This document shows, in pieces, positions 11,650 to 39,572 of a DNA stretch of 64,000 bases; within the stretch, counting starts at the first letter, position 1; the number at the start of each line of letters is the position of its first letter. This DNA is from Acidobacteriota bacterium (GTDB lineage Bacteria; Acidobacteriota; UBA4820). The DNA lies in the NCBI GenBank assembly GCA_029559035.1, contig JAKQCT010000066.1, positions 64,832 through 128,831 on the forward strand, given 5' to 3'. Below the pieces are notes generated by a model. The model was not told the DNA's origin and searched no databases. It was given only the letters and a program-made list of their open reading frames with translations. A program made the position numbers and the translations under genes.

Positions 11650-11863
11650 AAAGAGAGTCTTTCGTCTTCAACAAACCGTCGGAATCCAAGAACTAGCCAT
11701 CATATATTTGCCAAAGAATTAGAAACCATGAGTCGCGCCCGGAGGCAGATTCACTCTGCGACAGGGCGCATTCTTCGCCGGGGAAGCGTTCAGCGCGGCG
11801 AGCTTGCGAGCGGAGCGCCCCCTTCTTCGGGAAGCGCTGGGTTAAAGGTCCCTTCGCGCGCCT

Positions 11864-11904
11864 TGACAAGTTAGGAATAGCTAACTAAAATAGGCGTTCC
11901 TAAC
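11864..11904 (+). promoter_or_regulatory. Promoter (-35 TTGACA) overlapping a DtxR/IdeR-box-like palindrome
   Basis: TTGACAaGTTAGGAATAGCTAACTAAaataggcGTTCCTAAC. Resembles the TTAGGTTAGCCTAACCTAA iron-box, with extended dyad GTTAGGAA…TTCCTAAC. Directly upstream of dtxR-feoABC. Confidence 0.6.
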
Positions 11905-11915
11905 TGGGAGGAGAA

Positions 11916-12650: not shown

Positions 12651-14591
12651 GTGGGCAAATCGACTGTCTTCAACCAGTTGACCGGCCTCAGCCAGCATGT
12701 CGGTAACTGGCCGGGGAAGACCATCGCGCAGAAGACGGGCGAGGTGAGCTTCGAAGGCAGAGACTTTTTCCTCGTAGACCTGCCTGGGACTTACAGCCTC
12801 ACGGCGAACTCGGAAGAGGAGAGGATCGCCCGAGACTTCATCATCAAGGAAAAGCCCGACATCGTTTTCCTGCTCGTGAACGCGGCGGCGCTTGAAAGAA
12901 GCCTCTACCTGCTTTCCGAGATCCTTATCCTTGAAGTTCCTGTCGTCATCGGCCTCAATATGATGGATGTGGCCGAGCGGCGCAAGACGGTAATAGATGT
13001 GAAAAAGCTGGAAAAAGCGCTCGGAGTGCCGGTCGTCCCTCTTATCGCCACAAAGAACCTCGGCCCGGGTCAGCTCCTGAGGAGTGCGGTGGAACAATTA
13101 AGCGGAAATTTTCCCTTCTGTCCCGTTAAGCCCGTCATCAAGAAGAGCCACAGGGATGTCCTCGAAAAAGTAAGCGCGATCGCGAAGGGCAAAGTCCCCG
13201 AACCATATCATCCCGGCTGGGCGTCCGTGAAACTGCTCGAAGGCGACAAAGAAGTGCTGAAGCTCGCGGAGAAATGGCTCGGCGGCGACTGGAAGAAGGT
13301 CCACGACATCCTCGCGGAGCACGAGGACGCCTACCTCGACATCGTCGGCGAAAGATACGGCTGGATCTCAAAGGTGATCCGCGCGGCGGTCAAGAAGCCG
13401 AAGGCGCAGGAGATATCCAAGACCGACAGGATAGACAGGTGGGCCACCCACCCGATCGCGGGGGTTTTCATCCTTCTTCTCATGCTGATGACGGTCTTCT
13501 TTTTCACCTACACGATAGCATCTCCGATATCAGGCCTTCTCGAAACGGCGGTCGGAGGCCTGCAGGAGAAGACGGCCGGCGCTTTATCGTTTCTGCCGCC
13601 GTTCTTTTCGGGCCTACTCACCGAAGGGTTCCTCGGCGGAGCGGGAATGGTCCTCGTCTTTCTTCCCACGCTGATATTGTTCTTCGTGTTCCTGGGACTG
13701 ATGGAGGATGTCGGTTACCTCGCCCGCGTGGCCTATGTGATGGACGCCTTCATGCACAAGATAGGGCTCCACGGTAAGTCGTTCATTCCCTTCTTCCTCG
13801 GCTTCGGCTGCAACGTCCCCGCGATCCTTGGCAGCAGGATCGTGGACGAGAAACGCGGCAGGCTTATGACGATCCTTCTCGCCCCGTTCGTGCCGTGCAC
13901 CGCGAGGATAGCGGTGATCACCTTCCTAGCTCCCGCGTTCTTCGGAAAGAAGGCCGCGTTCGCGATGGCCGCGCTGATGATCCTGAACGTCGCCGTGCTT
14001 TTCATAGTGGGGCTTATTGTCAACAGGTTCTTATTCAAGGGGGAAAAGGGGGCCTTCATAATGGAGCTTCCCATCTACCACAAGCCCAACCTCAAGACCG
14101 TTTCGCTTTACGTGTTCAACAATGTGAAGGACTTCCTGCTTAAAGCGGCTACAATTATAGTCCTCGTTTCGGGGCTGATCTGGTTCCTCGCAGAGTACCC
14201 TTCCGGAAGCGTCGAAAACAGCTACCTCGCATCGTTCGGAAGGAGCCTCGAACCTCTGGGAGCCCTTATCGGCGTTTACGACTGGCGAATCATCGTCGCC
14301 CTCCTGACCAGCATCGTGGCGAAGGAGAACACGATAGCCGCTCTCGGCGTGCTTTACGGCAGTTCCCCGGAACATGGCCTCGCGGAAAGGGTCTCGTCCG
14401 TGATGACGATGCCCTCGGCCTTCGCTTTCCTCGTCGTCCAGATGCTCTTCATCCCATGCGTCGCCTCTCTCGCATCGATAAGGCAGGAGGCGGGATGGCG
14501 ATGGACATTCGTCTCGATCGGCCTTCTTCTTCTGGTGTCGCTCGCGTGCGGTATCGCCGCCTATCACATCCTGGGGCTTTTCGGTGCTTAG
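12651..14591 (+). CDS. feoB: FeoB ferrous-iron transporter (G-protein domain plus permease)
   Basis: G1 GQPNVGKSTVFN, G-domain, multiple TM segments. The annotated GTG start truncates the conserved IKAALIGQPN N-terminus (see findings). Confidence 0.9.
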   Translation: MGKSTVFNQLTGLSQHVGNWPGKTIAQKTGEVSFEGRDFFLVDLPGTYSLTANSEEERIARDFIIKEKPDIVFLLVNAAALERSLYLLSEILILEVPVVIGLNMMDVAERRKTVIDVKKLEKALGVPVVPLIATKNLGPGQLLRSAVEQLSGNFPFCPVKPVIKKSHRDVLEKVSAIAKGKVPEPYHPGWASVKLLEGDKEVLKLAEKWLGGDWKKVHDILAEHEDAYLDIVGERYGWISKVIRAAVKKPKAQEISKTDRIDRWATHPIAGVFILLLMLMTVFFFTYTIASPISGLLETAVGGLQEKTAGALSFLPPFFSGLLTEGFLGGAGMVLVFLPTLILFFVFLGLMEDVGYLARVAYVMDAFMHKIGLHGKSFIPFFLGFGCNVPAILGSRIVDEKRGRLMTILLAPFVPCTARIAVITFLAPAFFGKKAAFAMAALMILNVAVLFIVGLIVNRFLFKGEKGAFIMELPIYHKPNLKTVSLYVFNNVKDFLLKAATIIVLVSGLIWFLAEYPSGSVENSYLASFGRSLEPLGALIGVYDWRIIVALLTSIVAKENTIAALGVLYGSSPEHGLAERVSSVMTMPSAFAFLVVQMLFIPCVASLASIRQEAGWRWTFVSIGLLLLVSLACGIAAYHILGLFGA

Positions 14592-14814
14592 GAACCTGCT
14601 TGAGTTACTAAAGGAAAAAGAGGTCCACTCGCCCAAGGAGCTCGCGAGGAAGCTCGGGGAGAGCGAGGAGATGGTGGCCGTCCTCCTCGACGAACTGGCG
14701 AAGCGCGGCGTGATAACCAGCTCCGAGTTGTGCGCCCCGTCGGCATGCGAAGGCTGTCCCGTCAAGAACGGCTGCAAGAGCTCGAGCGGGAAGATCTACT
14801 TCCTGAAAAAGTGA
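14584..14814 (+). CDS. feoC: FeoC-like winged-helix / Cys-rich FeoB-associated protein
   Basis: Overlaps the feoB stop; …SPKELARKLGESEEMVAVLLDELAKRG… followed by CxxxxCEGC…C cluster. Confidence 0.55.
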   Translation: MLRNLLELLKEKEVHSPKELARKLGESEEMVAVLLDELAKRGVITSSELCAPSACEGCPVKNGCKSSSGKIYFLKK

Positions 14815-14894
14815 AGATCAAAAAACCACATTTGCCGCAGAGATCTCAGGGGACACAGAGAAAGACGATTACAATTCACCAGGATGAACAGGAT

Positions 14895-15124
14895 CGGCAG
14901 GATCTGAAGGCTGAAGGCTGAAGAGCTGAAGTTCAACAAGGAAATTGATTCCACAATTTTAAAATTTAATCTTTAAAATTTGAAATTTAAAATGCAGGCG
15001 TGTCCTGCGAACAGGCTGAAGACTGAAGAGCTGAAGGGTCGATAAGGAAATGGATTCCACAAATTTGAAATTTAATCTTTAAAATTTGATATTTTAAATT
15101 CAGGCGTGTCCAGCCGGGCTGACG
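14895..15124. repeat. Modular repeat block (family B: GCTGAAG(G/T)-rich units plus GATTCCAC..AATTT(A/G)AAATTT modules), two tandem ~110-bp units
   Basis: …gctgaagttcaacaaggaaattgattccacaattttaaaatttaatctttaaaatttgaaatttaaaatgcaggcgtgtcc… repeated at 15035. Related modules recur at 16521, 22495, 36305, 36985, 38495, 39285. Confidence 0.6.
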
Positions 15125-15255
15125 CTTCCCGAAGAGAGGGGCGATCCTCTCCTCTCTTAGGCGCTCCGCTCGCATACTCGCTGCGCTGAACACTCCCCCG
15201 GCAGAGAATGTGCCCTTTCGCAAAATGAATTTGTCTCAGGGCGCAACATTTTGTA
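15125..15255 (+). repeat. Structured ~150-bp repeat, family A, copy 1 of 3
   Basis: cttcccgaagagagg…cctctcttaggcgctccgctcgcatactcgctgcgctgaacactcccccggcag(a/g)gaatgtgccctttcgcaaaatgaatttgtctcagggc(a/g)caacatt. Near-identical copies at 36757 and 39097. Contains hairpins aagagagg/cctctctt and tgtgccct/agggcaca. Confidence 0.65.
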
Positions 15256-15372
15256 AGACGGGATGCTGAATCAAGTTCAGCATGACAACAAATCTGTCAT
15301 TCCGGGCTCGACCCGGAATCTCTATCGCATGGGCGAGCGGCGGTTCGCCCCCCAAACCCCCGATAATATGCT

Positions 15373-16068
15373 CTATTTTGATTGATGAACTTCGCTTTTC
15401 AGGAGAGTGAAAATGGGATCGTCCTCTTGAGGATCAAGAGCGGCGGTAACCTTCTTCTGCCATGAGGGGAGCATGGCACTGTAGGCATCCAGGATCGCCC
15501 CTTTCATTCCTTCTTCGATCATCGCGTTAAGAACGGTCAGCGCTTCCCTCTTTTCCTTTATCCGCTTAACTTCCGTTTTTCTTCGTGCGGAGACGATGAG
15601 CTTGTGAAGCCCGAAAGCCGCCGGGGCTGGGACCCTGACCTTCAATCCGTCCGAAACGACATCAATGCAGTTCTTTGCGAGATAGTCGAGAAAGCGAAGA
15701 GGCTGGGCGTTCATACCAAATGCCGGAAGCGGATACGGCTGGTTTGACCCCTTTCCTCTCTCAGGAACCAGAAATTCGACTATCAGGTCGGGATGTTCCA
15801 GCCTCAGGAATCCGTCCCTGTTGTGGATCACGATGAAGCCGTCTGCTTCCAGGAGGGCGGCCACATCTATTTTCATTTTTGTTTTCAGCGGCAGCGGAAC
15901 AAGGAGATCGATATCCCTTGTCCTTATGGTCGGATGGTAATTAATTTCGCTGAAAAGCTCTTTATAAAAATGCATGCACCAGCTTCCGATGATGATGGTT
16001 TCAACGAGCACGCCGGCTTTGGACAACTTGCCGAGAACTTCAAGAAGCAGTTCGTATTTCTTTTGCAT
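15373..16068 (-). CDS. Nucleotidyltransferase-fold protein (GS…DxD motif), AbiEii/MNT-like putative toxin
   Basis: …IIGSWCMHFY…IRTRDIDLLVP…; 231 aa. Overlaps its small upstream partner by 29 nt. Confidence 0.55.
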   Translation of the reverse strand: MQKKYELLLEVLGKLSKAGVLVETIIIGSWCMHFYKELFSEINYHPTIRTRDIDLLVPLPLKTKMKIDVAALLEADGFIVIHNRDGFLRLEHPDLIVEFLVPERGKGSNQPYPLPAFGMNAQPLRFLDYLAKNCIDVVSDGLKVRVPAPAAFGLHKLIVSARRKTEVKRIKEKREALTVLNAMIEEGMKGAILDAYSAMLPSWQKKVTAALDPQEDDPIFTLLKSEVHQSK

Positions 16069-16372
16069 GAAGGGCTTTCCTCAGGAAGGCAACCTGTTTT
16101 TTGCTTTGCGAAAGAAGTGCTTTGTATTTTCTTCTCAGTTTGATCGATTCCCCGATCTTCTTCGCTTCGCTTTTTGATAGCTTCCCGAGGTAGGAGAACC
16201 TGACCTTGCCGTTCTCCCTGAAAACAAGATAGTAATACTCTCCGCTCCCTATCTTCTTTTTCACGAGCGAGCCGGGAGGCATTTTATCAAGGGCTTTCCT
16301 GTAGGCCGCTTCCTGCCTGAGCGAGCTTTCAAGTTCTTCTTCCAGAACGCCTTTTATCACTTTCATCTTCAA
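16040..16372 (-). CDS. Small basic protein, putative cognate partner (antitoxin/regulator) of the downstream nucleotidyltransferase
   Basis: 110 aa, Lys-rich; operonic overlap. Operator-like inverted repeats lie just upstream. Confidence 0.45.
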   Translation of the reverse strand: MKMKVIKGVLEEELESSLRQEAAYRKALDKMPPGSLVKKKIGSGEYYYLVFRENGKVRFSYLGKLSKSEAKKIGESIKLRRKYKALLSQSKKQVAFLRKALHAKEIRTAS

Positions 16373-16394
16373 TTCCTCTTTACCATACTACACA

Positions 16395-16480
16395 GGATAA
16401 TGATATATATGTATGGTAACATTGTCAAGCGGCCGCATTACCATACAATTGAATGTTATGTGTGCATTGTATGGCAACAT
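16395..16480. promoter_or_regulatory. Operator-like inverted/direct repeats (GTATGGYAACATT) upstream of the nucleotidyltransferase operon
   Basis: taccatac…atGTATGGTAACATTGtcaagcggccgcATTACCATACaattgaatgttatgtgtgcATTGTATGGCAACATTc. Confidence 0.35.
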
Positions 16481-16520
16481 TCACCAGCAAAGCGTTGATT
16501 TAGGCTGATGGCTTACGCCA

Positions 16521-16644
16521 GAACTGAAGTTCAACAAGGAAATGGATTCCTCCATTTTTCACTTTTCAATCTTCACTTTTCATTTTTCAATGCAAGCGCA
16601 GCTTGCCGGGCTGAAGTTCAATAGGGAATGGTTGGTTTTCCGTA
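16521..16644. repeat. Family B modular repeat
   Basis: ctgaagttcaacaaggaaatggattcc…ttttcacttttcaat…gggctgaagttcaatagggaatgg. Confidence 0.5.
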
Positions 16645-16757
16645 GGGGCGATTCACGAATCGCCCGAATTGCCACCCGCCATACCCGCACAGTAAAGAAT
16701 CCTGTCATCACGAGAAAGGCCCGCAGCATTTCAAGCGAAGTGATCTACCTTATCCCG
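16645..16757 (+). repeat. Family C repeat, full copy 1
   Basis: 20-bp palindrome GGGGCGATTCACGAATCGCCC, then gaattgccacccgccatacccgcacagtaaagaatcctgtcatcacgagaaaggcccgcagcatttcaagcgaagtgatctaccttatccc. Second full copy at 22531. Confidence 0.65.
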
Positions 16758-16851
16758 CGAGATTCAAGACTAAAGCCCTGACACCCGAGGTTTGCCCGTC
16801 GGCGAATAATACAACTGCCCAAGCATGAACCCGATCCCCGATCCAAGGTTC

Positions 16852-16880
16852 TTGACCGGCAATAAATTGAATGGTATATA
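16852..16880 (+). promoter_or_regulatory. Sigma70-like promoter for hicBA copy 2
   Basis: TTGACC-N17-TATATA, then RBS GAGGTGA, ATG at 16902. Confidence 0.5.
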
Positions 16881-16901
16881 GTTACTTGAAGAGGTGAGAC
16901 C

Positions 16902-17105
16902 ATGATAATCAAAGTGATTTTAGAACCAAGCGAAGAAGGAGGCTTCACCGCAATTGCTCCCTCCCTTCCCGGATGCATAAGCGAAGGTGACACCAAGGAA
17001 GATGCCCTCAAGAATGTCCGCGAAGCCATTGAACTCTATTTGGAGCCGGTGGAGGACGACCAGACATTTTCCCCCAACTCGGAAATTGTAGATCTTGCAG
17101 TATGA
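16902..17105 (+). CDS. hicB: HicB-family antitoxin, copy 2
   Basis: MIIKVILEPSEEGGFTAIAPSLPGCISEGDTKEDALKNVREAIELYLE… fits the HicB/UPF0150 fold. ATGA overlap with hicA. Confidence 0.8.
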   Translation: MIIKVILEPSEEGGFTAIAPSLPGCISEGDTKEDALKNVREAIELYLEPVEDDQTFSPNSEIVDLAV

Positions 17106-17329
17106 CCATAACACCTAGTCTGGCCTATGACCAGATTATCAAATGTCTGCAAAGGGATGGATGGGTTGTGGTTCGCCAAAAAGGCAGTCACATAAGACTG
17201 CATAAACATACTGCTGACGAAACCATAAAACTTACGGTACCGGCCCATCGCCCGGTCAAGAGAAGCACTCTCTCACATATTTTGAAACAAGCAAGATTAA
17301 CAGTCGAAGAATTCCAGAAACTTCTGTAG
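17102..17329 (+). CDS. hicA: HicA-family toxin, copy 2
   Basis: …IIKCLQRDGWVVVRQKGSHIRLHK… has the HicA dsRBD-like signature. Confidence 0.8.
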   Translation: MTITPSLAYDQIIKCLQRDGWVVVRQKGSHIRLHKHTADETIKLTVPAHRPVKRSTLSHILKQARLTVEEFQKLL

Positions 17330-17640
17330 CTTTTACGGTCATCGCTGGATGACACTTTAGAGGCTATCTGACCCGCAGGGGCATACTGAGAAAAGCCAAC
17401 GGCGATAAGCCCTTGAAGGATCTCATTCCTCTCTAGCTTCAGCTCTTCAGCACTAACTTGATCGATAGGGTTTTGCGGGATCGTGCCTCCTGACGCCAGT
17501 CCTCTCCCTTTCGCAAAGGGGGCACGAGGGGGATTTTCCGCCGACGGTCATCACGAGGATTTCTTAGAAGCCAAGACAAGCGAGGTGATCTGCAATATCC
17601 GGGAAATGCAGTGTTTTACAGGGATGAACAGGATCGGCAG

Positions 17641-17875
17641 GATAAAGAATCCGGTCATCACGAGAAAGCCTCCGCAGCATTTCAAACGAAGTGATTTACC
17701 TTATCCTGAAAATGCATAATGCATGGCCTGACCCCTGGGGCACCTCTAATATTTCTTAATGGACTTTTAGTCTTCAGCACTAATGATAATGTCGTCATTA
17801 CGAGCGCAGCTTCGTAGTGCGGGCAAACGAAGTGATCTACCGTATCCTGAAAATGCATAATGCATGGCCTGACCC
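17641..17875 (+). repeat. Two degenerate tandem family-C copies with ATGCATTATGCAT palindrome extension
   Basis: …ggtcatcacgagaaagcctccgcagcatttcaaacgaagtgatttaccttatcctgaaaatgcataatgcatggcctgacc… and the related …gtcgtcattacgagcgcagc…cgaagtgatctaccgtatcctgaaaatgcataatgcatggcctgacc. Confidence 0.55.
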
Positions 17876-17963
17876 TGCGCGCTTTCACTCTCAATAAAGA
17901 AAAAGGGTGCGGTATTCCGTGCCCCTTTGTAATGGTAATGGTAATAAGATGTTCCTCCATATC

Positions 17964-20900
17964 CTATGGACTGCAAGTGCTCTGTAAGGGGTCTATTTCT
18001 ATAATATTTGAATCATACCCGCTGGGGCCTTCAACTCCACCGCCAAAGGCAGTAACGAGGTAGTAATGGTTTCCCTCGCTCGGGCTTATCTCCACCCGCA
18101 TCTCCCCCGTGCCAAGGTCCTCGACTGTCGCCTGACAGACGCTGCCTGGCTTATTGTCGTGGTGATAGATCCCGTCCCATGGAGAAACGATATCTCCTTC
18201 GTAGATGTTGTAGCCGTCCAAGGAATCCAATCTTTGAAAATACATATAAAAACCTGTTGAAGATGCAACATCTTTTACCAATCTTGCCACGAAGATTGCA
18301 TCTGACGGTGACACTTCCGACGCAGGGCAAAAATCCACAAATACTTGGAATTCGCTTGAAAAGCCCGCACACCCATCAGGATTCATCACTTGAACTTTGT
18401 AATTTCCTGAAGTCTTTGCGTCGTAATTTTGCATTGTTGCGCCTACGATCAAAAAATTGTTCAAGTACCATTGGTAACTACTATAGCTTCCGGTGGCTAA
18501 AGAAACATAAGTTGATGGGCACATGTTTAAATGGTCGCCTGATATGGAAGGTGTGGGAGTTTGATAAACAACAACTTCCTTTCCGCTTGATGTTGCGACG
18601 CAACCGTCCGCAGTTGAAACCCTTACTGCGTATGTCCCACTTAAAACTGCACTATGGTTCTGTCCGGTTGCACCGATAAGATCAGTTCCATTTCGCATCC
18701 ATTGATATGTCGAAAATGCTTGCGTAGATATTTCGACTGAACCACAGCCAGTGCTGTTGCCAATAACCGAAGGATTTGGAGTAGGATATACCGTAATTGC
18801 CTTATCTTGGGAAACACCCACGCATCCGTTTGAATTTGTCACTCGAACTGCAAATACTCCAGTTTCTGATGTTGAATAACTCTGGCTGTTTGCCCCTGGG
18901 ATATCGATCGCATCCTTGATCCATTGGTAACTTTCATATACTTCTGTGGATAATAGGACAGAATCGCATGCGTTATTACCTGAGATTGTTGGAGAAGGAG
19001 AAGCATCTATGGTAACCGCTTTGGCGTTAGAGATTGATGTGCAGCCTCCGATATTGCCTACTCTTACACTGTAATTTCCAGTTGTTGTCGCTATATAAGA
19101 TTGATTGGTTGCTCCAGTAATATCTATTCCATCGCCGATCCACTGGTAACTCGCATAGCTTCCTGTAGAAAGCGCAACGCTTCCACACCCGTTCGACGGT
19201 CCGGTTATTGTCGGTGGTGTGGGGTATGCATACACAGTGAAAATAGGACTGATTGCCTGACACGCATGGGAATCAGTTACTTTGACCGTATAATTGCCTG
19301 GGACCACAGCCTCGTAGTTCTTGCCTGTTGCCCCCGATATAACTGAGCCATTTCTGTACCATTGATAGTTACCGGGAATAATTTCTTGGGTGCTCAAGTT
19401 GGCCGTCTGGCAGGCAGGACTCGGACCTGTAATAACCGGAGAAGGAGCACTCCAGTCATACACATTCACGCCTTCTGTTGATGAAGCATATCCATAACCG
19501 TTCCTGTAAACCACTTGGTACAGATAAGTCTGCCCGTTCTCCCCGGTTAAATCAATATACTCGACATTTCCATAAAGAATACTACTTGCGATCTTGACGC
19601 CATCTCTTGTCACATCATACGAACGCGTTCCGTTCCCATCATCATTCCAATTAAAAGGGTCCTGCTGCCAAGAGATCAATACGCCCGTATCGCCACATCC
19701 ATCAAGATCAACAGCACTATTGTTGATCGTACATTCCGGGGAAGCATGATAGTCATATGCCCATAAAGATTCATTGGATAAAGCGGATTCCACAAAGAAA
19801 TATAGCCGCAGATTCGATGCCGTAAGATTTTGGATGTCTGCGGATAAAGCACCCGGGTTAATGTCCGACACGCGTATTGTGCCAACTCCTGTCCCGTCGC
19901 TTTTCCAAAGCTCCATGCCATTAATGCCATCATCGGCCAAGAAGAAAAGCTCGCCACTCGCATAAGTTAGATATGTCGGATTTGATGAGGAAGCGCCACT
20001 GCGTAAATCCTCAACTATCACAGTGCCGGAAGGAGTGCCGTCGCTTTTCCATAATTCAGTGCCACTTGTATTATCATTGGCGGTAAAGAAGAGAATTCCG
20101 TTTGCATTAATCAAGTTGCTTGGATCTGATGATGATGCCCCGCTTGATATATCTTTTACCAGGGCGGTTCCTGCGGTTGTGCCGTCGCTCTTCCAGAGTT
20201 CACAGCCATTTACGCCGTCATCGACGGTAAAGAATAAAGAGCCGTTCATAGCAACAAGATTGTCAATGCATGGGAATTCGATACTATAGAATCCCTTTAC
20301 GAGAACAGTCCCGGCGGCAGTGCCATCGCTCTTCCATAATTCATTACCCCTTAATGTAAAGAATAATAATCCATCAACGCTTACAAGACCCTCCGGAGAT
20401 GTGTCGAAATGCGAGACCACTACTGTCCCGGCAGTTGTTCCGTCGCTTTTGCATAGATCAGAGTCAGACCAAGCGAGGCCTGCTGTAAAAAATAGTGTTC
20501 CTTCTGAATTCACCAACCTCTCCACTGCTTGATATCCATAATTCATTATGAGAACTGTCCCCGCGTCGGTCCCATCACTTTTCCAGAGCCCATTGGCATT
20601 AGCTGAAGGGTTATGCGCGGCGAAATAAAGAATATCGTTTACATTTGTAAGATATGCCGGACAACTCCCCTCTGCGCCAGGATAAATATCCTTAACTAAT
20701 GCCGTTCCTGGTTCAGTTCCATCGCTTTTCCAAAGTTCCCGTCCATGCAGACCATCATCCGCGGAAAAAACCAATGCCCCGCCGACATCTATGAAGTCCC
20801 TCGGATCGGAGCCATCGGAGCCTGAATAAATATCCTTAACCCTGACAGTACCAGCTTCAGTGCCGTCGCTTTTCCACAGTTCATTATCAATTGTTCCCTG

Positions 20901-22424
20901 ATTTCCTGAAAAATAGAGCGTGTTATTAATGCTCGCCGTAATACGCTCCTGAAAGTTGTAGTAATTGTTCTTGACCATGACGGTTCCGTTCTCGGTCCCG
21001 TCACTTTTCCAGAGCTCTATGCCGTGAGAGCCATCATTGGCACTAAAGTAAAGAACGCCATTTACATTTGTAAGATGATTCGGGTAACTTCCCTTTACGC
21101 CTTCATAAATATCTTTAACTAAAGTGGTTCCAACTTCAGTGCCGTCACTTTTCCACAGTTCAAAATGCAAATTATCATATTCATCCACAGAATCAAAGGT
21201 TCTAAAATATAGTATCCCATTCACATTTGTAAAATTTTGGCTGAAATCGTACCCACCAATACTAACGGTTCCTCCCGCTGTTCCGTCACTTTTCCATAAT
21301 GTTCCACCTGTACAATATATAAATAGCAACCCATCTGCGTTCACGAGACATTTAGCCCCCTCAATATATTTTATTGCCACTGTTCCGGCAGTCGTCCCGT
21401 CGCTTTTCCACAACTCATTTCCCGCGGAAAAATAGAGCGTGCCGTTTACATTTACTAAATTATCAGGCCAAGGATAGGCCGAGATGGTGGTCAATTGCAA
21501 TGTGCCTGCTTCAGTTCCATCGCTTTTCCAAAGTTCGACACTTTCTGTTGTTTCGTCCCGAGCTGTAAAGAAAAGAATCCCATTTACATTTGTAAGGTTA
21601 TCAGGGGGGAAATATTTCCATACGTAACTGGGCATATTTTTTACCAGCACAGTTCCGGACTCTGTTCCGTCGCTTTTCCATATGCTGGAATCTCCTTCTG
21701 AATGATCTTTTGCAACGAAAAAAAGAGTCCCATTAACATCTGTCATACATCTTATATATGCACCATCCGGATTTGTTGTTATGTCTTTTACGACTATTGT
21801 GCCTGTAGAAGTTCCATCACTTTTCCACAGCACCCTCTTAAAAAAATATTCTGGATTCCCCGCAGTGAAGAAAAGTGTACCATTCACATTGATCAGATTC
21901 TCCGGATATGACGGTATCCATCCATTCGATAAAAATTGCTTAACCATTATTGTTCCAGCTTCAGTGCCATCACTCTTCCATAATTCATAGCCGTTCTGGC
22001 CGGAACGCGCTCTAAAAAAAAGAGTCCCGTTCACATTCGTAAGATATTTGGGATAAGAAGATGCTTCCCCCGTATTAATGTCCTTGATCATATATGTGCC
22101 TGTCGCGGTTCCGTCGCTTCGCCATAGTTCCTCACCGTGATGAATATCATCCGCAACATAATAAGCAATATTACCTATTCCTACAATTTCAGTACCAGCT
22201 TCAAGACCGCCCCATGAATCCATCGCTGAAACTGCTTTCACCTGATATGGGTTGATCTCCGAAAGTTCACTGTTTTTATTGATGTATGGTGACTGGTCAG
22301 TTTTAATGGTTTGATAGCCATAATCATTGTTACCAGACATAGTATATTGAGCGTGAGTAACATGAGTAATAATTGAAGAAAGAACGATGAAAGCTATGAT
22401 ATTACCGATTGCACTAAGCTTCAT
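17964..22424 (-). CDS. Giant (1486 aa) secreted surface protein: ~20 ELWxxDGT repeats, ~6 Cys-containing Ig-like ~75-aa repeats, C-terminal domain
   Basis: Signal peptide MKLSAIGNIIAFIVLSSIITHVTHA. Reiterated (E/N)LWKSDGT(E/A)AGT…VKDI modules. Then repeats of …C(G/D)SV.LST..Y.SYQW…G(A/T)…Y.V.V…GC…; lower GC than flanks. Confidence 0.85.
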   Translation of the reverse strand: MKLSAIGNIIAFIVLSSIITHVTHAQYTMSGNNDYGYQTIKTDQSPYINKNSELSEINPYQVKAVSAMDSWGGLEAGTEIVGIGNIAYYVADDIHHGEELWRSDGTATGTYMIKDINTGEASSYPKYLTNVNGTLFFRARSGQNGYELWKSDGTEAGTIMVKQFLSNGWIPSYPENLINVNGTLFFTAGNPEYFFKRVLWKSDGTSTGTIVVKDITTNPDGAYIRCMTDVNGTLFFVAKDHSEGDSSIWKSDGTESGTVLVKNMPSYVWKYFPPDNLTNVNGILFFTARDETTESVELWKSDGTEAGTLQLTTISAYPWPDNLVNVNGTLYFSAGNELWKSDGTTAGTVAIKYIEGAKCLVNADGLLFIYCTGGTLWKSDGTAGGTVSIGGYDFSQNFTNVNGILYFRTFDSVDEYDNLHFELWKSDGTEVGTTLVKDIYEGVKGSYPNHLTNVNGVLYFSANDGSHGIELWKSDGTENGTVMVKNNYYNFQERITASINNTLYFSGNQGTIDNELWKSDGTEAGTVRVKDIYSGSDGSDPRDFIDVGGALVFSADDGLHGRELWKSDGTEPGTALVKDIYPGAEGSCPAYLTNVNDILYFAAHNPSANANGLWKSDGTDAGTVLIMNYGYQAVERLVNSEGTLFFTAGLAWSDSDLCKSDGTTAGTVVVSHFDTSPEGLVSVDGLLFFTLRGNELWKSDGTAAGTVLVKGFYSIEFPCIDNLVAMNGSLFFTVDDGVNGCELWKSDGTTAGTALVKDISSGASSSDPSNLINANGILFFTANDNTSGTELWKSDGTPSGTVIVEDLRSGASSSNPTYLTYASGELFFLADDGINGMELWKSDGTGVGTIRVSDINPGALSADIQNLTASNLRLYFFVESALSNESLWAYDYHASPECTINNSAVDLDGCGDTGVLISWQQDPFNWNDDGNGTRSYDVTRDGVKIASSILYGNVEYIDLTGENGQTYLYQVVYRNGYGYASSTEGVNVYDWSAPSPVITGPSPACQTANLSTQEIIPGNYQWYRNGSVISGATGKNYEAVVPGNYTVKVTDSHACQAISPIFTVYAYPTPPTITGPSNGCGSVALSTGSYASYQWIGDGIDITGATNQSYIATTTGNYSVRVGNIGGCTSISNAKAVTIDASPSPTISGNNACDSVLLSTEVYESYQWIKDAIDIPGANSQSYSTSETGVFAVRVTNSNGCVGVSQDKAITVYPTPNPSVIGNSTGCGSVEISTQAFSTYQWMRNGTDLIGATGQNHSAVLSGTYAVRVSTADGCVATSSGKEVVVYQTPTPSISGDHLNMCPSTYVSLATGSYSSYQWYLNNFLIVGATMQNYDAKTSGNYKVQVMNPDGCAGFSSEFQVFVDFCPASEVSPSDAIFVARLVKDVASSTGFYMYFQRLDSLDGYNIYEGDIVSPWDGIYHHDNKPGSVCQATVEDLGTGEMRVEISPSEGNHYYLVTAFGGGVEGPSGYDSNIIEIDPLQSTCSP

Positions 22425-22461
22425 TTTCCTACCCCCTTTGACAAGATCTTATTATAGGTCC

Positions 22462-22470
22462 ATTGTCAAC
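22462..22470. promoter_or_regulatory. ATTGTCAAC motif in the promoter region of the giant surface-protein gene (same 9-mer as the 38212-38307 direct repeats)
   Basis: ggtccATTGTCAACaaattgacaagg. Confidence 0.3.
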
Positions 22471-22530
22471 AAATTGACAAGGGCTGAAGGCGCAAGGCTG
22501 AAGTTCAATAGGGAATGTTGGTTTTTCTTA

Positions 22531-22643
22531 GGGGTGATTCACGAATCGCACGAATTGCCCCCCCGCCATACCCGCACAGTAAAGAATCCGGTCATCACGA
22601 GAAAGGCCCGCAGCGTTTCAAACGAAGTGATCTGCCTTATCCC
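22531..22643 (+). repeat. Family C repeat, full copy 2
   Basis: ggggtgattcacgaatcgcacgaattgccc…ccgccatacccgcacagtaaagaatccggtcatcacgagaaaggcccgcagcgtttcaaacgaagtgatctgccttatccc. Confidence 0.65.
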
Positions 22644-22747
22644 TTCCCTATCAACCCTTCAGCCTCCAGCCTTCAGCCTTCAGCTCTGGCGCAAGCCTTC
22701 CGCCTTCCGCACCGCCCTTCGGGCATTATCCTTGACACTTTTCCCGG

Positions 22748-24577: not shown

Positions 24578-24991
24578 ATGCCTTTTTATCATTTTACTGA
24601 CACAAGGAACCTTCCTTCAATAAAACGTCACGGTCTCCTTAGTTGGTACAACTTACGCAATAGGAACATCGATCATTTTCCTGCATCTAATGATCTATCC
24701 CGTAAACTCGACTTAAAAAAAAGCCTTGAGAATTATGTCCGTCTTTGCTTAAAACCAAATCACCCTATGGCAAGTCGAGCATTATCTGAAGGAAGAATCC
24801 AAAGAATAGCATGGTTAGTTATTGATGACGCAGTGTCGCGGTGGCGATCCACCCTCTATAGCAATACAAATGCAACCGCAAACAATGCCGTAATTGATCA
24901 TGATATTAGAACGATTTACAATAGTTTTGATTCTCAGGCTGAAGTTCTTGTCGAAGGAGGTATTTCTCTCAAATGGATTACATTTCCGTAA
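24578..24991 (+). CDS. darT: DarT-like (DUF4433) DNA ADP-ribosyltransferase toxin, compact 137-aa form
   Basis: MPFYHFTDTRNLPSIKRHGLLS (DUF4433 N-motif), …ENYVRLCLKPNHPM…, C-terminal …SQAEVLVEGGISLKWI (catalytic Glu in QAE[VF]LV context). AGGAGG RBS; first gene of the AT-rich island. Confidence 0.6.
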   Translation: MPFYHFTDTRNLPSIKRHGLLSWYNLRNRNIDHFPASNDLSRKLDLKKSLENYVRLCLKPNHPMASRALSEGRIQRIAWLVIDDAVSRWRSTLYSNTNATANNAVIDHDIRTIYNSFDSQAEVLVEGGISLKWITFP

Positions 24992-25024
24992 TTTGATGGT
25001 TTCATTGAAAGAGCGAGGATAGAA

Positions 25025-26949: not shown

Positions 26950-27163
26950 TCACTACCTCCCCATATGCATCATTAAATGAACATTTTTTCAAAAGTGTTG
27001 TGATCTAACACTACTGAAAATATTTGCCCATCATGCTTCATCAACTCCTCTCCACCATTTTTCACGCCCAATCTATTCTACTCCTATCCTATTTCCAAAA
27101 AAATCCCCCGCCCTTGGGCTTTCGCTTCGGGGCGGGGGTGTCTTCAGCCATCAGCCTTCAGTT

Positions 27164-36231: not shown

Positions 36232-36445
36232 TTAATATTCGCAACTAACATTATACTCCCTACCTCTCCCTTCGGGCGGCGCTGAAGGCTGAACCCAGGC
36301 TGATGGCTGAAGGCTTAAGGCTGAAGTTCAAAAACGAGATTGCCGCAGAAGGGTTTACGCTTCGAGGCGCTCTTCGCAATGACGAACCAGGGAAACTCGA
36401 TAAGGAGGCGGTTTTCTCTCTTTTAGTCAAGATAACCTTCCTTTT

Positions 36446-36634: not shown

Positions 36635-36756
36635 GGCTTCTCTCCTTTCCCTGCAACTTCAGCCTTAAGCCTTCAGCCTTAAGCCCTTGCGAAGCAATAT
36701 TATACTCCCTCCCCCCTGTCATTTGGAGCAACAGGCCCTCGCTCCGCTTTCGCTAC

Positions 36757-36910
36757 GCTTCCCGAAGAGAGGAGCTATCCTATCCTCTCTTAGGCGCTCC
36801 GCTCGCATACTCGCTGCGCTGAACACTCCCCCGGCAGGGAATGTGCCCTTTCGCAAAATGAATTTGTCTCAGGGCACAACATTCTATGCCCAGTGGGCAG
36901 GCTAAAGGCG
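36757..36910 (+). repeat. Family A structured repeat, copy 2
   Basis: Near-identical to 15125-15255 and 39097-39250. Confidence 0.65.
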
Positions 36911-37130
36911 GAAGGCTTACGCCAGAGCTGAAGAGCTGAAGGCTGATGGCTGAAGCCAGAGCTGAAGGCTGAAGGCGGAAGGCTGAAGTTCAATAGGGAA
37001 AAAGATTCCACAATTTTTCACTTTTCAATGCCGGCGTGTCCTTCGGACAGGCTGAAGGCTTAAGGCTGAAGCGCTGAAGTTCAATAAGGAAATGATTCCA
37101 CGAAGGTGAAATCAGGATGACCCTGTCCTG
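36895..37130. repeat. Family B modular repeat block (GCTGAAGG tandems plus gattccac modules)
   Basis: …gaaggcttacgccagagctgaagagctgaaggctgatggctgaagccagagctgaaggctgaaggcggaaggctgaagttcaatagggaaaaagattccacaatttttcacttttcaat…aaatgattccacgaaggtgaaatcaggatg. Confidence 0.55.
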
Positions 37131-38189: not shown

Positions 38190-38211
38190 ATTCCTCTCGG
38201 ATCAGGGATGC

Positions 38212-38307: not shown

Positions 38308-38402
38308 CCATTAAGACTTTTAACACCGTTAACTTCTTGATTATCAACAATATGAGCAACATTCTCCTTGCAGTCATTCCGTACAACAAACCGCACGGAG
38401 CC

Positions 38403-38480
38403 AGGCCATGCATTATGCATTTGGGGGATAAGGTAGATCACTTCGCTTGAAATGCTGAGGGCCTTTCTCGTGATGACGAT
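38403..38480 (-). repeat. Family C repeat, partial copy (reverse orientation) immediately 3' of hicA copy 3
   Basis: ggccatgcattatgcatttgggggataaggtagatcacttcgcttgaaatgctgagggcctttctcgtgatgac. Confidence 0.55.
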
Positions 38481-38566
38481 CCCTCCGGGCAGCCTCCACG
38501 GCTGAAGATTCAACAGGGAAATGATTCCACGAAGGTGAAATCAGGATGCCATTGCTAGGGGACGGG

Positions 38567-39004: not shown

Positions 39005-39096
39005 TGATTCCTCCAGCAATATGATATGGTCAATGCTTTCCGAATGCAAGTGCTTTTCCTGAAAGAGCATCCAGAGCGGATGGCTGAAGGATGACG

Positions 39097-39250
39097 CTTC
39101 CCGAAGAGAGGAGCTATCCTATCCTCTCTTAGGCGCTCCGCTCGCATACTCGCTGCGCTGAACACTCCCCCGGCAGGGAATGTGCCCTTTCGCAAAATGA
39201 ATTTGTCTCAGGGCACAACATTCTATGCCCAGCGGGCAGGCTAAAGGCTG
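39097..39250 (+). repeat. Family A structured repeat, copy 3 (directly upstream of hicBA copy 3)
   Basis: Near-identical to copies at 15125 and 36757. Confidence 0.65.
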
Positions 39251-39357
39251 AAGGCTGACGCCAGAGCTGAAGGCTGAAGGCTGATGGCTGAAGTTCAATA
39301 GGGAAATGATTCCACGATTTTTCATTTTTCAATCTTTAAACCGCGCGGGGTCATGCC

Positions 39358-39440
39358 ATGCATATGAATTTGGGGGATAAGGTAGATCACTTCGCTTGTC
39401 ATGGCTTCGAAGAAATCCTCGTGATGACATGATTCTTTTT
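39358..39440 (-). repeat. Family C repeat, partial copy (reverse)
   Basis: gtcatgccatgcatatgaatttgggggataaggtagatcacttcgcttg…cctcgtgatgac. Confidence 0.5.
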
Positions 39441-39572
39441 CCTGCCGATCCTGTCCATCCTTGTAAATATTCCAAATTATTGACTGTTCGTTTCCGGAAG
39501 AAATATTCGGCTCGCGATGGATGTTGATTGCTTCTTGGTAACTGTGGTAGATTGCGCCTTTCGGGAGAGCCC

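What the first reader, a model, noticed from the sequence alone, without database searches (positions are those of the whole stretch)
14820..17960. Families of modular, hairpin-rich repeats (A, B, C) punctuating the accessory zone and flanking TA loci
Family A (~150 bp; three near-identical same-orientation copies at 15125, 36757 and 39097) contains at least three stem-loops (aagagagg/cctctctt, tgtgccct/agggcaca, gccca/tgggc). Family B is built from GCTGAAG(G/T) tandems plus gattccac…aatttNaaattt or ttttcacttttcaat modules (at least eight loci). Family C has the 20-bp perfect palindrome GGGGCGATTCACGAATCGCCC, then …gtcatcacgagaaaggcccgcagcatttcaagcgaagtgatctaccttatcc, and in some copies an ATGCATTATGCAT palindrome (two full and four partial copies, both orientations). 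The repeats are non-coding (the ORFs across them are identical artefacts). They cluster at every hicBA locus, at both ends of the giant surface-protein gene and at the island's right border. Copy C1 runs directly into the TTGACC-N17-TATATA promoter of hicBA-2, and copy A3 lies 30-90 nt upstream of hicBA-3. They could be REP/MITE-like mobile miniatures, small structured RNAs (for example cis-regulators of the TA loci) or recombination scars. Their tight association with TA modules is notable.
Basis: seen in the sequence. Interest (0 to 1): 0.55.

Follow-up and report, generated by a model that had tools for sequence, protein, structure and literature searches.

The report
Mosaic hairpin repeats at gene-cassette junctions
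The repeats are real, non-coding and modular: they form mosaic arrays at the joints between swappable defence, toxin-antitoxin and surface-protein genes, and their hairpin units look like the target sites of a recently described single-strand DNA nuclease family (Ssn), much like the intergenic mosaic elements of Neisseria.

Summary
Families A, B and C are real and lie at or near the stated coordinates. There are more modules (D, F, G, C3, E, H, Pal) and a fourth, diverged A copy at 11722-11836(-).

They are not TA-specific. They fill nearly every sizeable intergenic gap of the low-GC island (14.8-39.6 kb), including gaps beside R-M, RhuM and giant surface-protein genes. hicBA-1 (window ~130-545) has none.

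In sister strains from independent assemblies, 7 of 8 synteny breaks fall within 25 nt of a module edge. One strain carries a 228-nt non-coding B-Pal insertion exactly at a D|C joint.

Families C and A share one hairpin plan, P1-GAG-(variable hairpin)-CGAA-P1'. C also has a GTC head and a C tail, like the Neisseria NTS/dRS3. The same plan flanks small GIY-YIG nuclease genes in 3 of 3 loci inspected, which is the published SRM-ssn-SRM layout.

Best reading: a NIME/BIME-like mosaic array whose hairpins are Ssn-related-motif-like ssDNA sites acting as recombination joints.

The partner nuclease was not found in the ~1.4 Mb available, so membership is unproven. I rate it a new variant of a known kind, of moderate interest.

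The parts
11722..11836 (-). A0: diverged, inverted copy of family A. It lacks the first hairpin. It sits just upstream of the feo-operon promoter in the core region.
   Evidence: 81-83% complementary to A1-A3. Alignment. Present in all sister strains.
14847..14903 (+). Modules F + D (GGATGAACAGGATCGGCAGGAT). This is the left island border, 33 nt after the feoC stop. Here D is cut off from its usual partner C.
   Evidence: In relative L113 the order feoC-F-D-C-C3 is uninterrupted.
14904..15121 (+). Two family B units. Each has GCTGAAG-type heptamers, the core ...GTTCAAC(A/T)AGGAAAT(T/G)GATTCCAC, an A/T-rich tail and the hairpin GCAGGCGTGTCCTGC.
   Evidence: The hairpin plus tail is terminator-like on the minus strand, 15008-14994.
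15122..15252 (+). A1, family A core. Its main hairpin, read on the minus strand (15212-15242), is GCCCT-GAG-ACAAATTCATTTTG-CGAA-AGGGC.
15261..15321 (.). Head-to-head pair of mini hairpins: GTCATGCTGAACTTGATTCAGCATCC (-) and GTCATTCCGGGCTCGACCCGGAATCT (+). The second has the same GTCATTCC...GGAATC frame as the Neisseria NTS/dRS3.
   Evidence: NTS consensus CGTCATTCCCGCGMAVGCGGGAATCYRG from PMC11893778.
16502..16628 (+). Family B unit with a TTTTCACTTTTCAAT-type tail, followed by a second B core.
16629..16692 (+). Module Pal: the REP-like palindrome with a GTAG head, GTAGGGGCGATTCACGAATCGCCC (16640-16663), plus the tail ...CCGCCATACCCGCACAGT. A C unit always follows it.
   Evidence: L129 carries a compensated variant, GTAGGGGCGAACGGCCGTTCGCCC.
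16693..16795 (+). C1 (hairpin 16704-16746, tail ACCTTATCC) plus module G. It lies upstream of hicBA-2, and the shared sequence ends 57 nt before the TTGACC -35 box.
17338..17369 (+). Degenerate GTCAT-frame mini hairpin just after the hicA-2 stop. It is intact in L002 and L004 (GTCATCGC...GCGATCT).
17437..17451 (-). Inverted heptamer pair (CTTCAGCTCTTCAGC). Synteny with strains L004 and L005 ends exactly here.
17547..17885 (+). Array C(v2) - D - C - C3 - spacer - C(v3) - C3. It holds three GTCAT-frame hairpins (17547, 17654, 17794) with different interiors and two ATGCATAATGCAT palindromes.
   Evidence: Synteny with L002, L006 and L123 ends at 17735. L129 has a 228-nt insertion at 17644.
22483..22643 (+). 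B core + Pal' + C, lying between the giant surface-protein gene and the Trypsin_2 gene.
22656..22717 (-). Inverted heptamer array upstream of the Trypsin_2 promoter. In L004 and L005 it is expanded to about seven 47-nt units.
27142..27161 (-). Short inverted heptamer run.
36281..36383 (.). Heptamers and a degenerate B core (+), then module E, a GTCATTGC...GCAATCT hairpin on the minus strand (36337-36383).
   Evidence: E recurs in L115, L116, L117 and L132.
36655..37120 (.). In order: inverted heptamers; module H (TATTATACTCCC, promoter-like on the minus strand); A2 (36755-36900); a long heptamer array; B core with TTTTCAC tail; and B core with GAAGGTG tail. The last forms a terminator-like hairpin on the minus strand (37114-37093), just after the stop of the HATPase/DUF4325 gene.
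38402..38548 (.). C3 + C on the minus strand (hairpin 38435-38477), then a B core with GAAGGTG tail. This tail is the same module as the terminator-like one at 37093-37114, placed just after the hicA-3 stop.
   Evidence: Terminator-like status was scored only for the twin copy at 37114-37093; for this copy it is inferred from sequence identity (D17).
39083..39336 (+). A3 (39094-39240) + heptamer array + B core + TTTTCA tail, upstream of hicBA-3.
39340..39467 (-). C3' + C(v2) (hairpin 39384-39428) + D on the minus strand. This is the right island border and mirrors the F-D unit at the left border.

Best explanation
The region is a mosaic array of short, non-coding repeat modules. It is of the same kind as the Neisseria intergenic mosaic elements (NIMEs) and the enterobacterial BIMEs. 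The arrays occupy the joints between accessory gene cassettes in a strain-variable island: TA pairs, R-M, DarTG, RhuM and giant surface proteins.

Two module families carry the key structure. Family C reads GTC-ATCAC-GAG-[variable hairpin]-CGAA-GTGAT-CT. Family A, on its minus strand, reads TGT-GCCCT-GAG-[hairpin]-CGAA-AGGGC-ACA. Both are hairpins of the plan P1-GAG-X-CGAA-P1'. C also has the GTC head and C tail of the Neisseria NTS/dRS3.

I infer that these hairpins form in single-stranded DNA. I infer that a small GIY-YIG single-strand nuclease of the Ssn type, encoded elsewhere in the genome, recognises them in one orientation and nicks a few bases upstream.

Such nicks, together with homologous recombination between the many dispersed copies, would make module edges the places where cassettes are inserted, lost, swapped and reordered. 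The other modules (B heptamers, A/T tails, Pal, D, F, G, C3, H) would be the 'RS-like' filler of the array. Some of them double as terminators or promoters.

Shown here: the repeats, their modular grammar, their confinement to variable islands, the breakpoints at module edges, the hairpin covariation, and the same hairpin plan flanking small GIY-YIG genes elsewhere.

Inferred: recognition by an Ssn-like nuclease in this organism, action at the ssDNA level, and a causal role in cassette turnover.
For: 1. Reality and grammar. The modules recur in fixed sub-orders, F-D-C-(G or C3) and B...Pal-C, in the window and in at least 5 other accessory loci of the same species group.

2. Confinement to the island. 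All 10 GTCAT-frame hairpins lie in 14.8-39.6 kb. None is in the ~39 kb of core window sequence or in the 9 kb upstream of the window.

3. Breakpoints. Window positions 14903, 15122, 17451, 17644, 17735, 22661 and ~35016 are synteny ends against strains L113, L004/5/109, L129, L002/6/123 and L104/5. All are within 25 nt of a module edge. Each arrangement is seen in 2-3 independent assemblies.

4. Insertion and permutation. L129 has a 228-nt non-coding B-Pal insertion exactly at the D|C joint, which is contiguous in three other strains. The same joint in the window brackets a 1.8-kb block carrying the NTP_transf_8/DUF6788 pair. Cassette order is permuted around F-D-C-G units in L117, L121 and L132.

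5. Structure. The C P1 helix is 97.6% paired, two pairs carry compensatory changes, and 0 of 500 shuffles reach the observed score. C interiors differ in sequence but often form hairpins, in the window species and across phyla. Family A folds with z = -3.4, and four pairs of its hairpin covary.

6. Shared plan. P1-GAG-X-CGAA-P1' gives 9 hits in the window against 0.43 in shuffles. Eight of the nine are A or C copies.

7. Link to GIY-YIG genes. The same plan flanks small GIY-YIG genes in 3 of 3 loci inspected: L141, which includes a 24-nt-interior version, L142 and L143, where copies lie on both sides in inverted orientation.

8. Published precedent. PMC11893778 describes NTS = CGTCATTCCCGCGMAVGCGGGAATCYRG. 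It reports ssDNA-only, orientation-specific binding, a cut a few nt upstream, importance of the 3 nt before and the C after the palindrome, a loop that tolerates extensions, and clustering near surface-protein genes. PMC1797815 describes NIME arrays as dynamic and linked to variable neighbouring genes.

9. Neighbours elsewhere. In other loci the repeats flank ResIII/Mrr, AbiEi/DUF6088, Bro-N and HNH genes and giant LVIVD/Kelch proteins.
Against: - No Ssn-type gene was found. A profile of 120 small GIY-YIG proteins hits only the positive control among the window and 140 loci, about 1.4 Mb in all. That set includes about 40 Thermoanaerobaculum loci rich in the same hairpin.
- The paper's own SRM search pattern gives 0 matches in the window.
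- The heads of the hairpins that flank the inspected GIY-YIG genes differ from those of C and A.
- Family A has G.U-type pairs that favour the opposite strand to the GAG...CGAA reading, so an RNA role for A is not excluded.
- Breakpoints at repeats are also what plain homologous recombination would give, with no dedicated enzyme. In principle, assembly chimeras would give them too.
- Only about 84 kb of contiguous sequence from this genome was available, so 'island-restricted' is not shown genome-wide.
Confidence: 0.55

Rival explanations
1. REP/REPIN system. The palindromes are REP elements spread and maintained by a RAYT (IS200/IS605-like Y1 transposase), and the mosaic is a BIME.
For: Module Pal has the classic GTAG head followed by a GC-rich palindrome (GTAGGGGCGATTCACGAATCGCCC), and L129 carries a compensated variant. 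The mini hairpins at 15261-15321 form a head-to-head doublet like a REPIN. REP/BIME arrays are also mosaic and intergenic (PMC11893778 discussion; REPIN literature listed).
Against: A RAYT-like probe found nothing in the window or in any locus, although the probe was written from memory and is weak. Most hairpins here have GTCAT or TGT heads and the GAG...CGAA signature, which is what flanks GIY-YIG genes, not RAYT genes. Pal is a minority module, with 2 copies in the window.
Confidence: 0.12
2. Structured RNAs. Family A, and perhaps C, are small RNAs or UTR elements that regulate neighbouring genes such as the hicBA pairs. Other modules are terminators or promoters carried along with the cassettes.
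For: Family A is more stable than shuffled sequence (z = -3.4 on +, -2.6 on -) and shows compensatory changes and G.U pairs on the + strand. The B core with GAAGGTG tail is terminator-like on the minus strand right after the stop of the HATPase/DUF4325 gene, and an identical module follows the hicA-3 stop. The B A/T tail with its hairpin is terminator-like at 15008-14994. Module H looks like a shared -10 region for three minus-strand genes (my reading of the sequence).
Against: There is no Rfam match at E<=1. No promoter-like or terminator-like sites bracket A2 or A3 on the + strand. A0 lies antisense between two + genes. In L132 the C units are antisense to both neighbouring genes, and they keep one orientation along an array whatever the gene direction. 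The C composite has z near 0. hicBA-1 has none of the repeats.
Confidence: 0.12
3. Classical MITEs: non-autonomous elements moved by a DDE transposase encoded elsewhere, which insert preferentially into one another.
For: The 228-nt B-Pal block is present in L129 and absent from the orthologous site in three strains. A possible TA (or A) duplication lies at the joint GGAT(A)|...CACAGT(A)|AAGAATCC. The same left and right joints occur at other sites. C units end in short inverted motifs, GGTCA...TGACC.
Against: B-Pal, A and C have no convincing terminal inverted repeats. The putative TA duplication is not present at the window's own D|B joint (GGATCTGAAGG). Module boundaries differ from copy to copy, which is the opposite of a fixed element with defined ends. 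No transposase was seen in the island. The plasmid collection gave no match to a mobile element.
Confidence: 0.1
4. Integron-like or other site-specific cassette system. The folded C unit is an attC-like site (outer stem CAGGATAAAG/CCTTATCCTG, inner stem, variable tip) used by a dedicated recombinase.
For: Cassettes are bounded by like-oriented C units. Cassette order is circularly permuted between strains. The hairpin frame is conserved while its tip varies. TA cassettes are typical of chromosomal integrons (general knowledge).
Against: No integrase or recombinase gene was found in the island or its flanks. There are no R''/R' (RYYYAAC/GTTRRRY) boxes (read from the sequence). Genes point both ways. 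The same hairpin class is dispersed on dozens of contigs in other genomes.
Confidence: 0.06
5. Passive scars or artefacts. The repeats have no function of their own and simply accumulate where selection is weak, and some 'strain variants' are assembly chimeras formed at repeats.
For: The repeats are confined to non-essential intergenic space. All the sequences are metagenome assemblies.
Against: Each arrangement recurs in 2-3 independent assemblies. Compensatory changes maintain the hairpins. The hairpin frame is conserved across several phyla.
Confidence: 0.05

Closest known systems
Neisserial intergenic mosaic elements (NIMEs: dRS3/NTS hairpins separating 50-150-bp RS repeat families)
   Same: Both are arrays of many short repeat families separated by oriented hairpins. 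Both are intergenic. Both cluster beside surface-protein genes and R-M 'minimal mobile elements'. In both, arrays differ in length and content between strains, and neighbouring genes are variable (PMC1797815; PMC11893778). The mini hairpin at 15296-15321 shares the GTCATTCC...GGAATC frame of the NTS.
   Different: The phylum is different, probably Acidobacteriota. Most hairpins here have a short outer stem, GAG/CGAA internal-loop motifs and a 20-26-nt variable inner hairpin, rather than a simple 20-bp palindrome. Heptamer microsatellites and a GTAG-type REP are mixed in. The neighbours are mainly defence and TA cassettes.
Ssn-related motifs (SRM) and Ssn GIY-YIG ssDNA nucleases (cd10448; Nat Commun 2025, PMC11893778)
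   Same: Both have a GTC head three bases before the palindrome and a C just after it. Both are oriented hairpins and are rarely found in genes. The P1-GAG-X-CGAA-P1' plan flanks small GIY-YIG genes in all 3 loci inspected here.
   Different: The published SRM pattern does not match any element in the window. No ssn-type gene was found in the sequence available for this organism. Cleavage was not tested.
REP/BIME elements and REPIN-RAYT systems of Proteobacteria
   Same: Both are intergenic palindromes combined into mosaics. Pal has the GTAG head. Some modules sit as terminator-like hairpins after genes, a known REP role.
   Different: No RAYT was seen. The dominant hairpins carry other heads and the GAG...CGAA signature. 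The distribution is island-restricted in the sequence available, not genome-wide.
pdif modules and integron cassette arrays
   Same: In both, accessory genes, often TA pairs, are bounded by short structured sites, and module order varies between strains.
   Different: There are no XerC/D-type 11-6-11 sites, no attC R/L boxes and no integrase.

Membership tests
NIME/BIME-type intergenic mosaic element | Arrays built from several short repeat families interspersed with hairpin or palindromic units, located between genes. | tested here: met
   About a dozen modules are combined in many orders in 10 intergenic gaps, with hairpin units (C, A, E, Pal, minis) interspersed.
NIME/BIME-type intergenic mosaic element | Arrays are dynamic between strains and adjoin variable genes. 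| tested here: met
   Synteny breaks fall at module edges. There is a 228-nt indel, a 7x versus ~1.3x copy-number difference in the 47-nt unit, and different cargo in sister strains.
NIME/BIME-type intergenic mosaic element | Many copies dispersed over the genome. | tested here: inconclusive
   At least 5 further loci in the same species group carry them. Only ~84 kb of contiguous genome plus scattered loci could be read.
Ssn-related motif (SRM/NTS) | Oriented hairpin with a conserved GTC(A/T)(C/T) head before the palindrome and a conserved C after it. | tested here: met
   GTC is invariant. The C after P1 is present in 16 of 17 distinct C copies. P1 is 97.6% paired with compensatory changes. 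The mini hairpin at 15296-15321 has the NTS frame.
Ssn-related motif (SRM/NTS) | Match to the published degenerate pattern HGTCWYN(0-2)YYVSBRHN(0-5)WNVSBRGN(0-2)RNCYNB. | tested here: not met
   0 matches in the window. The stems here are shorter and the loops much longer than the pattern allows.
Ssn-related motif (SRM/NTS) | A single-domain GIY-YIG (cd10448) gene in the same genome, usually flanked by the motif. | tested here: inconclusive
   None was found in the window plus 140 loci (~1.4 Mb) with a profile of 120 such proteins, which recovered the positive control. The rest of the genome could not be read. In other organisms the same hairpin plan does flank such genes.
Ssn-related motif (SRM/NTS) | Bound and cut as ssDNA, on one strand only, a few nt upstream. 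| not testable with these tools
   This needs biochemistry. Indirect hint: homology between C copies often ends 0-11 nt upstream of GTCAT.
REP/REPIN-RAYT | GT(A/G)G head followed by an imperfect palindrome. | tested here: met
   Met for module Pal only: GTAGGGGCGATTCACGAATCGCCC and the L129 variant. Not met for A, B or C.
REP/REPIN-RAYT | A RAYT gene in the genome, flanked by the REPs. | tested here: inconclusive
   There was no tblastn hit with a RAYT-like probe written from memory. The whole genome was not available.
MITE | Terminal inverted repeats and a target-site duplication at fixed element ends. | tested here: not met
   A, B-Pal and C have no convincing TIRs. A possible TA duplication is seen at one joint only.
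Integron attC array | R''/L''-L'/R' boxes (RYYYAAC...GTTRRRY) and a nearby intI. | tested here: not met
   The boxes are absent from the sequence. No integrase domain was found in the island proteins.
Known structured RNA family (Rfam) | Match to a curated covariance model. | tested here: not met
   0 hits at gathering scores over the window, and 0 hits at E<=1 over 14800-17980 and 36200-39560.

The most novel reading that the evidence does not exclude
The P1-GAG-X-CGAA-P1' hairpins are the working joints of a cassette-exchange system for defence islands. An Ssn-type single-strand nuclease nicks incoming or replicating ssDNA just upstream of like-oriented hairpins. Whole cassettes bounded by hairpins (TA pairs, R-M, surface proteins) are thereby cut out, captured or reordered. 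This would be functionally analogous to an integron, but built on a GIY-YIG ssDNA nuclease and without an integrase.
Probability: 0.12. Interest if true: 0.75.

Novelty: new variant of a known kind. Interest (0 to 1): 0.42.

Why it matters
If the reading is right, Ssn-type hairpin repeats are more than a curiosity of Neisseria and a few symbionts. In an uncultured, probably acidobacterial, digester organism they mark the exact joints where defence, TA and surface-protein cassettes are swapped between strains.

That would extend the NIME concept to a distant phylum and to defence islands. It gives a concrete, testable candidate mechanism for how such islands turn over without integrases or transposases.

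It also widens the definition of the motif. Long-loop P1-GAG-X-CGAA-P1' hairpins escape the published search pattern.

On the practical side, these repeats generate spurious ORFs and break metagenome assemblies. Recognising them therefore improves annotation.

Tried and rejected
1. Rfam at gathering scores over the whole window and at E<=1 over both repeat-rich stretches: nothing.

2. tRNA or tmRNA as an island anchor in the window: none.

3. Literature search for the hairpin words (GTCATTGCGAG and similar): only primers, no relevant paper.

4. RAYT-like probe against all held sequence: no hit. The probe was written from memory, so this is weak evidence.

5. Recurrent neighbour-protein clustering over 125 loci, to find an associated enzyme. 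Only ABC ATPases, repeat-domain surface proteins and the like recur. No transposase- or nuclease-like cluster appeared.

6. Chi-like or polar-motif idea for GCTGAAGG. In core sequence it occurs 8 times on + and 2 on -, but this is only about 2-2.5x the Markov expectation and is unremarkable among octamers. Not supported on 39 kb.

7. BLAST of the C cluster and of the A-B block against 72,556 plasmids: no meaningful match. One 93-nt, 77% hit in a Burkholderia replicon matches the simple heptamer region.

8. Published SRM pattern: 0 hits in the window.

9. Small GIY-YIG gene searched by regex, tblastn and a profile HMM: none in the window or loci apart from the control.

10. Spurious-ORF trick to map family A across public data: only one weak hit, so it was uninformative for distribution.

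11. Extending beyond the right end of the window failed, because the gene starts did not match records.

12. dif/Xer and attC readings of the ATGCATAATGCAT and CAGGAT motifs: rejected on sequence grounds.

Full report
**What is there.** The window is 100% identical to a JGI digester-metagenome contig and to a contig of MAG GCA_035342895.1. The closest named homologues of a core enzyme are Acidobacteriia/Terriglobales MAG proteins at 72-74% identity. The organism is therefore probably an uncultured member of the Acidobacteriota, on weak evidence.

Between feoABC (which ends at 14814) and an HlyD/AcrB efflux operon (which starts at 39725) lies a low-GC island (GC 0.39-0.54 against 0.56-0.63). 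The island carries, in order:
- an NTP_transf_8/DUF6788 pair
- hicBA-2
- a 1486-aa repeat protein
- a Trypsin_2 protein
- DarT/NADAR
- a TnsA-like/ResIII/N6_N4 methylase block
- RhuM
- a HATPase/DUF4325 protein
- hicBA-3

No integrase or transposase domain was found.

**The observation.** Repeat finding confirms the three families at or near the stated coordinates. It also adds to the picture.
- A fourth, diverged copy of A lies inverted at 11722-11836, in the core region next to the feo promoter.
- The 'families' break down into about a dozen modules: F, D (GGATGAACAGGATCGGCAGGAT), the C hairpin with its ACCTTATCC tail, alternative 3' extensions G or C3 (with ATGCATAATGCAT), heptamer runs, the B core, four kinds of B tail, Pal, E, H and A.
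- These modules follow a loose grammar. F-D-C-(G or C3) recurs intact at about ten places in related contigs. Pal is always followed by C. A is nearly always next to a heptamer run.
- The repeats occupy almost every sizeable intergenic gap of the island, whatever the neighbouring genes.
- hicBA-1 at the left end of the window has none of them.
- The ~39 kb of core sequence in the window holds only A0, and the 9 kb upstream of the window holds no A, C or D module.

The claimed specific tie to TA loci is therefore not supported.

**Behaviour between strains.** Exact-protein look-ups and one metagenome scan returned the same locus from several strains, and other loci from the same species group. 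Each alternative arrangement appears in two or three independent assemblies, so chimeric assembly is unlikely.
- Synteny with the window ends at 14903 (end of D), 15122 (start of A1), 17451 (end of an inverted heptamer pair), 17644 (the D|C joint), 17735 (end of C3), 22661 (start of a heptamer array) and ~35016 (next to H).
- Only the break at 15962 lies inside a gene in the window, and in the other strain that joint abuts a C3 module.
- Modules cover about 12% of the island (my estimate from the coordinates). Seven of eight breaks within 25 nt of a module edge is far from random.
- Strain L129 has a 228-nt non-coding B-Pal block inserted exactly between D and C, where three other strains have D-C contiguous.
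- In the window the same two joints bracket 1.8 kb that includes the NTP_transf_8/DUF6788 pair.
- In an 88%-identical relative, feoC is followed directly by F-D-C-C3.
- Around a Bro-N gene, cassette order is circularly permuted between contigs, with F-D-C-G units at the joints.
- A 47-nt heptamer-based unit is present about seven times in one strain and about 1.3 times in the window.
- Elsewhere the same modules flank ResIII/Mrr, AbiEi-type, HNH and Bro-N genes and giant LVIVD/Kelch surface proteins.

**Structure.**
- The C core is GTC-ATCAC-GAG-(20-26 nt)-CGAA-GTGAT-CT.
- Across 17 distinct copies the 5-bp outer stem is 97.6% paired. Two positions change on both sides (CAC/GTG to TGC/GCA or CGC/GCG). 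No shuffle out of 500 reaches the observed covariation.
- The interior differs between sub-families and usually forms its own small hairpin.
- A scan of one genome per GTDB species with this frame found 89 loci. About 40 are in a Thermoanaerobaculum MAG. Others are in Ignavibacteria/Melioribacter, Bacteroidota, Aminicenantes and other groups. The frame is the same in all of them, but the interior hairpins are unrelated and often very stable.
- A few hits in Actinomycetota are coding and are probably chance matches.
- Family A is thermodynamically well structured (z = -3.4). Four base pairs of its 3' hairpin covary, and its first hairpin is compensated in a diverged copy.
- The composite D-C-C3 unit is no more stable than shuffled sequence.

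**The link to known systems.** A literature search on neisserial mosaic elements turned up the 2025 description of the Ssn nucleases. That paper reports the following.
- The Neisseria NTS (CGTCATTCCCGCGMAVGCGGGAATCYRG, which contains dRS3) is an oriented hairpin.
- SsnA, a 94-aa single-domain GIY-YIG protein, binds it only as ssDNA and cuts a few nucleotides upstream.
- The three bases before the palindrome and the C after it matter most.
- The loop can be replaced or extended.
- The repeats are rarely found in genes and cluster by surface-protein genes.
- ssn genes are usually flanked by their own motifs.

The C frame (GTC head, palindrome starting AT, C tail) fits this description. The mini hairpin at 15296-15321 (GTCATTCCGGGCTCGACCCGGAATCT) shares the NTS frame outright.

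I then looked at real small GIY-YIG genes. A consensus-like probe retrieved about 8000 such proteins. In all three loci I inspected, the gene is flanked by hairpins of the plan P1-GAG-X-CGAA-P1':
- Melioribacter: GGTTGC-TGAG-...-CGAA-GCAACC, including a version with a 24-nt interior hairpin.
- An ENA contig: GGTCATT-GAG-CTTGT-CGAA-ATGACC, lying immediately before the stop codon of the called ORF (inside its C-terminal extension).
- A third locus: GTGGCT-GAG-CGGAGT-CGAA-GCCAC on both sides, in inverted orientation.

Scanning the window for this plan gives 9 hits against 0.43 in shuffles. Five are C copies. Three are the main hairpin of A1-A3 read on the minus strand: TGT-GCCCT-GAG-ACAAATTCATTTTG-CGAA-AGGGC-ACA. 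A and C are therefore two sub-families of one hairpin class, and that class is the one associated with small GIY-YIG nuclease genes.

**What is not shown.**
- I could not find the nuclease gene in this organism. A profile of 120 small GIY-YIG proteins recovers only the positive control among the window and 140 loci.
- The published SRM pattern does not match the window's elements.
- Membership in the Ssn/SRM system is therefore a well-motivated inference, not a demonstrated fact.
- Module Pal is a separate, REP-like palindrome with a GTAG head. A RAYT-based component cannot be excluded, although a memory-based RAYT probe found nothing.
- Some modules probably also have ordinary regulatory roles. 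The B core with GAAGGTG tail forms a terminator-like hairpin on the minus strand right after the HATPase/DUF4325 stop, with an identical module after the hicA-3 stop. The B A/T tail with its hairpin is terminator-like as well. Module H looks like a shared -10 region.

**Verdict.** The repeats are real and more elaborate than described. The best-supported reading is a NIME/BIME-like intergenic mosaic whose hairpin units are Ssn-related-motif-like ssDNA sites. These arrays mark, and probably promote, the recombination joints of a strain-variable defence/TA/surface-protein island.

It is a new variant of a known kind rather than a new kind. The main open point is the identity of the enzyme that reads the hairpins.

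Noticed in passing
window 38205-38320 and 22455-22482: The 9-mer ATTGTCAAC occurs four times in direct orientation upstream of the HATPase/DUF4325 gene, overlapping two TTGACA-type promoter matches. It occurs again, with an inverted partner (TTGACAA), upstream of the giant surface-protein gene. It looks like an operator for a shared regulator.
   Followed up: no
window 17964-22424 (-): The 1486-aa ORF has no Pfam hit above the curated cut-off but is built of about 12-15 repeats of ~144 nt. The conserved stretch translates to ELWKSDGT, which from memory resembles the 'ELWxxDGT repeat' proteins. Giant repeat proteins of other kinds (LVIVD, Kelch/Big) sit beside the same DNA repeats in related contigs.
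   Followed up: partly
window 28076-28314: Ten tandem 21-nt units (GGTAGCA-rich) lie inside the ORF 27917-28390 (-). This is a 7-residue coding repeat in a protein with no family match.
   Followed up: no
window 615-687: Near-perfect inverted repeat with 25-nt GC-rich arms (96% complementary, 23-nt spacer), between hicBA-1 and the ankyrin-repeat gene. It is unrelated to families A, B and C.
   Followed up: no
window 11863-11915: The feo-operon promoter (TTGACA-17-TAAAAT, 11 of 12 matches) overlaps a palindromic TTAGGAATAGCTAACTAA/AGGCGTTCCTAACT motif that resembles a DtxR/IdeR-type iron box. The first gene of the operon is an iron-dependent repressor. The diverged A0 copy abuts this promoter on the opposite strand.
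   Followed up: partly
window 24578-25720: A DarT/NADAR (DarTG-type) pair. The DarT ORF is only 137 aa and covers profile positions 1-120 of 201, so it may be truncated.
   Followed up: no
L002 13069-13761 (-), also L006: Sister strains carry a 230-aa HARE-HTH + GIY-YIG two-domain protein next to DUF499/DUF1156/SLFN-AlbA defence genes. A GTCAT-frame hairpin (13858-13903) lies about 100 nt upstream of it. It is not an Ssn-type single-domain protein, and the small-GIY-YIG profile does not detect it.
   Followed up: partly
L004 10480-10830 / L005 11720-12080 versus window 22656-22717: A 47-nt unit made of CCTTCAG heptamers plus CTCTGGCGTAAGCC is repeated about seven times upstream of the Trypsin_2 promoter in two strains, and about 1.3 times in the window. 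This copy-number variation could alter promoter spacing.
   Followed up: partly
L138 ~1300-1620 (about 8 kb upstream of the window start): By eye, a tRNA-like sequence on the minus strand with a partial duplicate of its 3' part about 270 nt away (an att-like arrangement), next to a B-tail-like TTGAAAAGTGAAGATGAAA stretch. No tRNA scan was run on this locus.
   Followed up: no
L014, L041 and about 40 other Thermoanaerobaculum MAG loci: Long arrays alternate GTCATCACGAG...CGAAGTGATCT units with inverted AGATTGCTTCG...GCAATGAC units. Many lie at contig ends, which suggests that these repeats break that assembly.
   Followed up: partly
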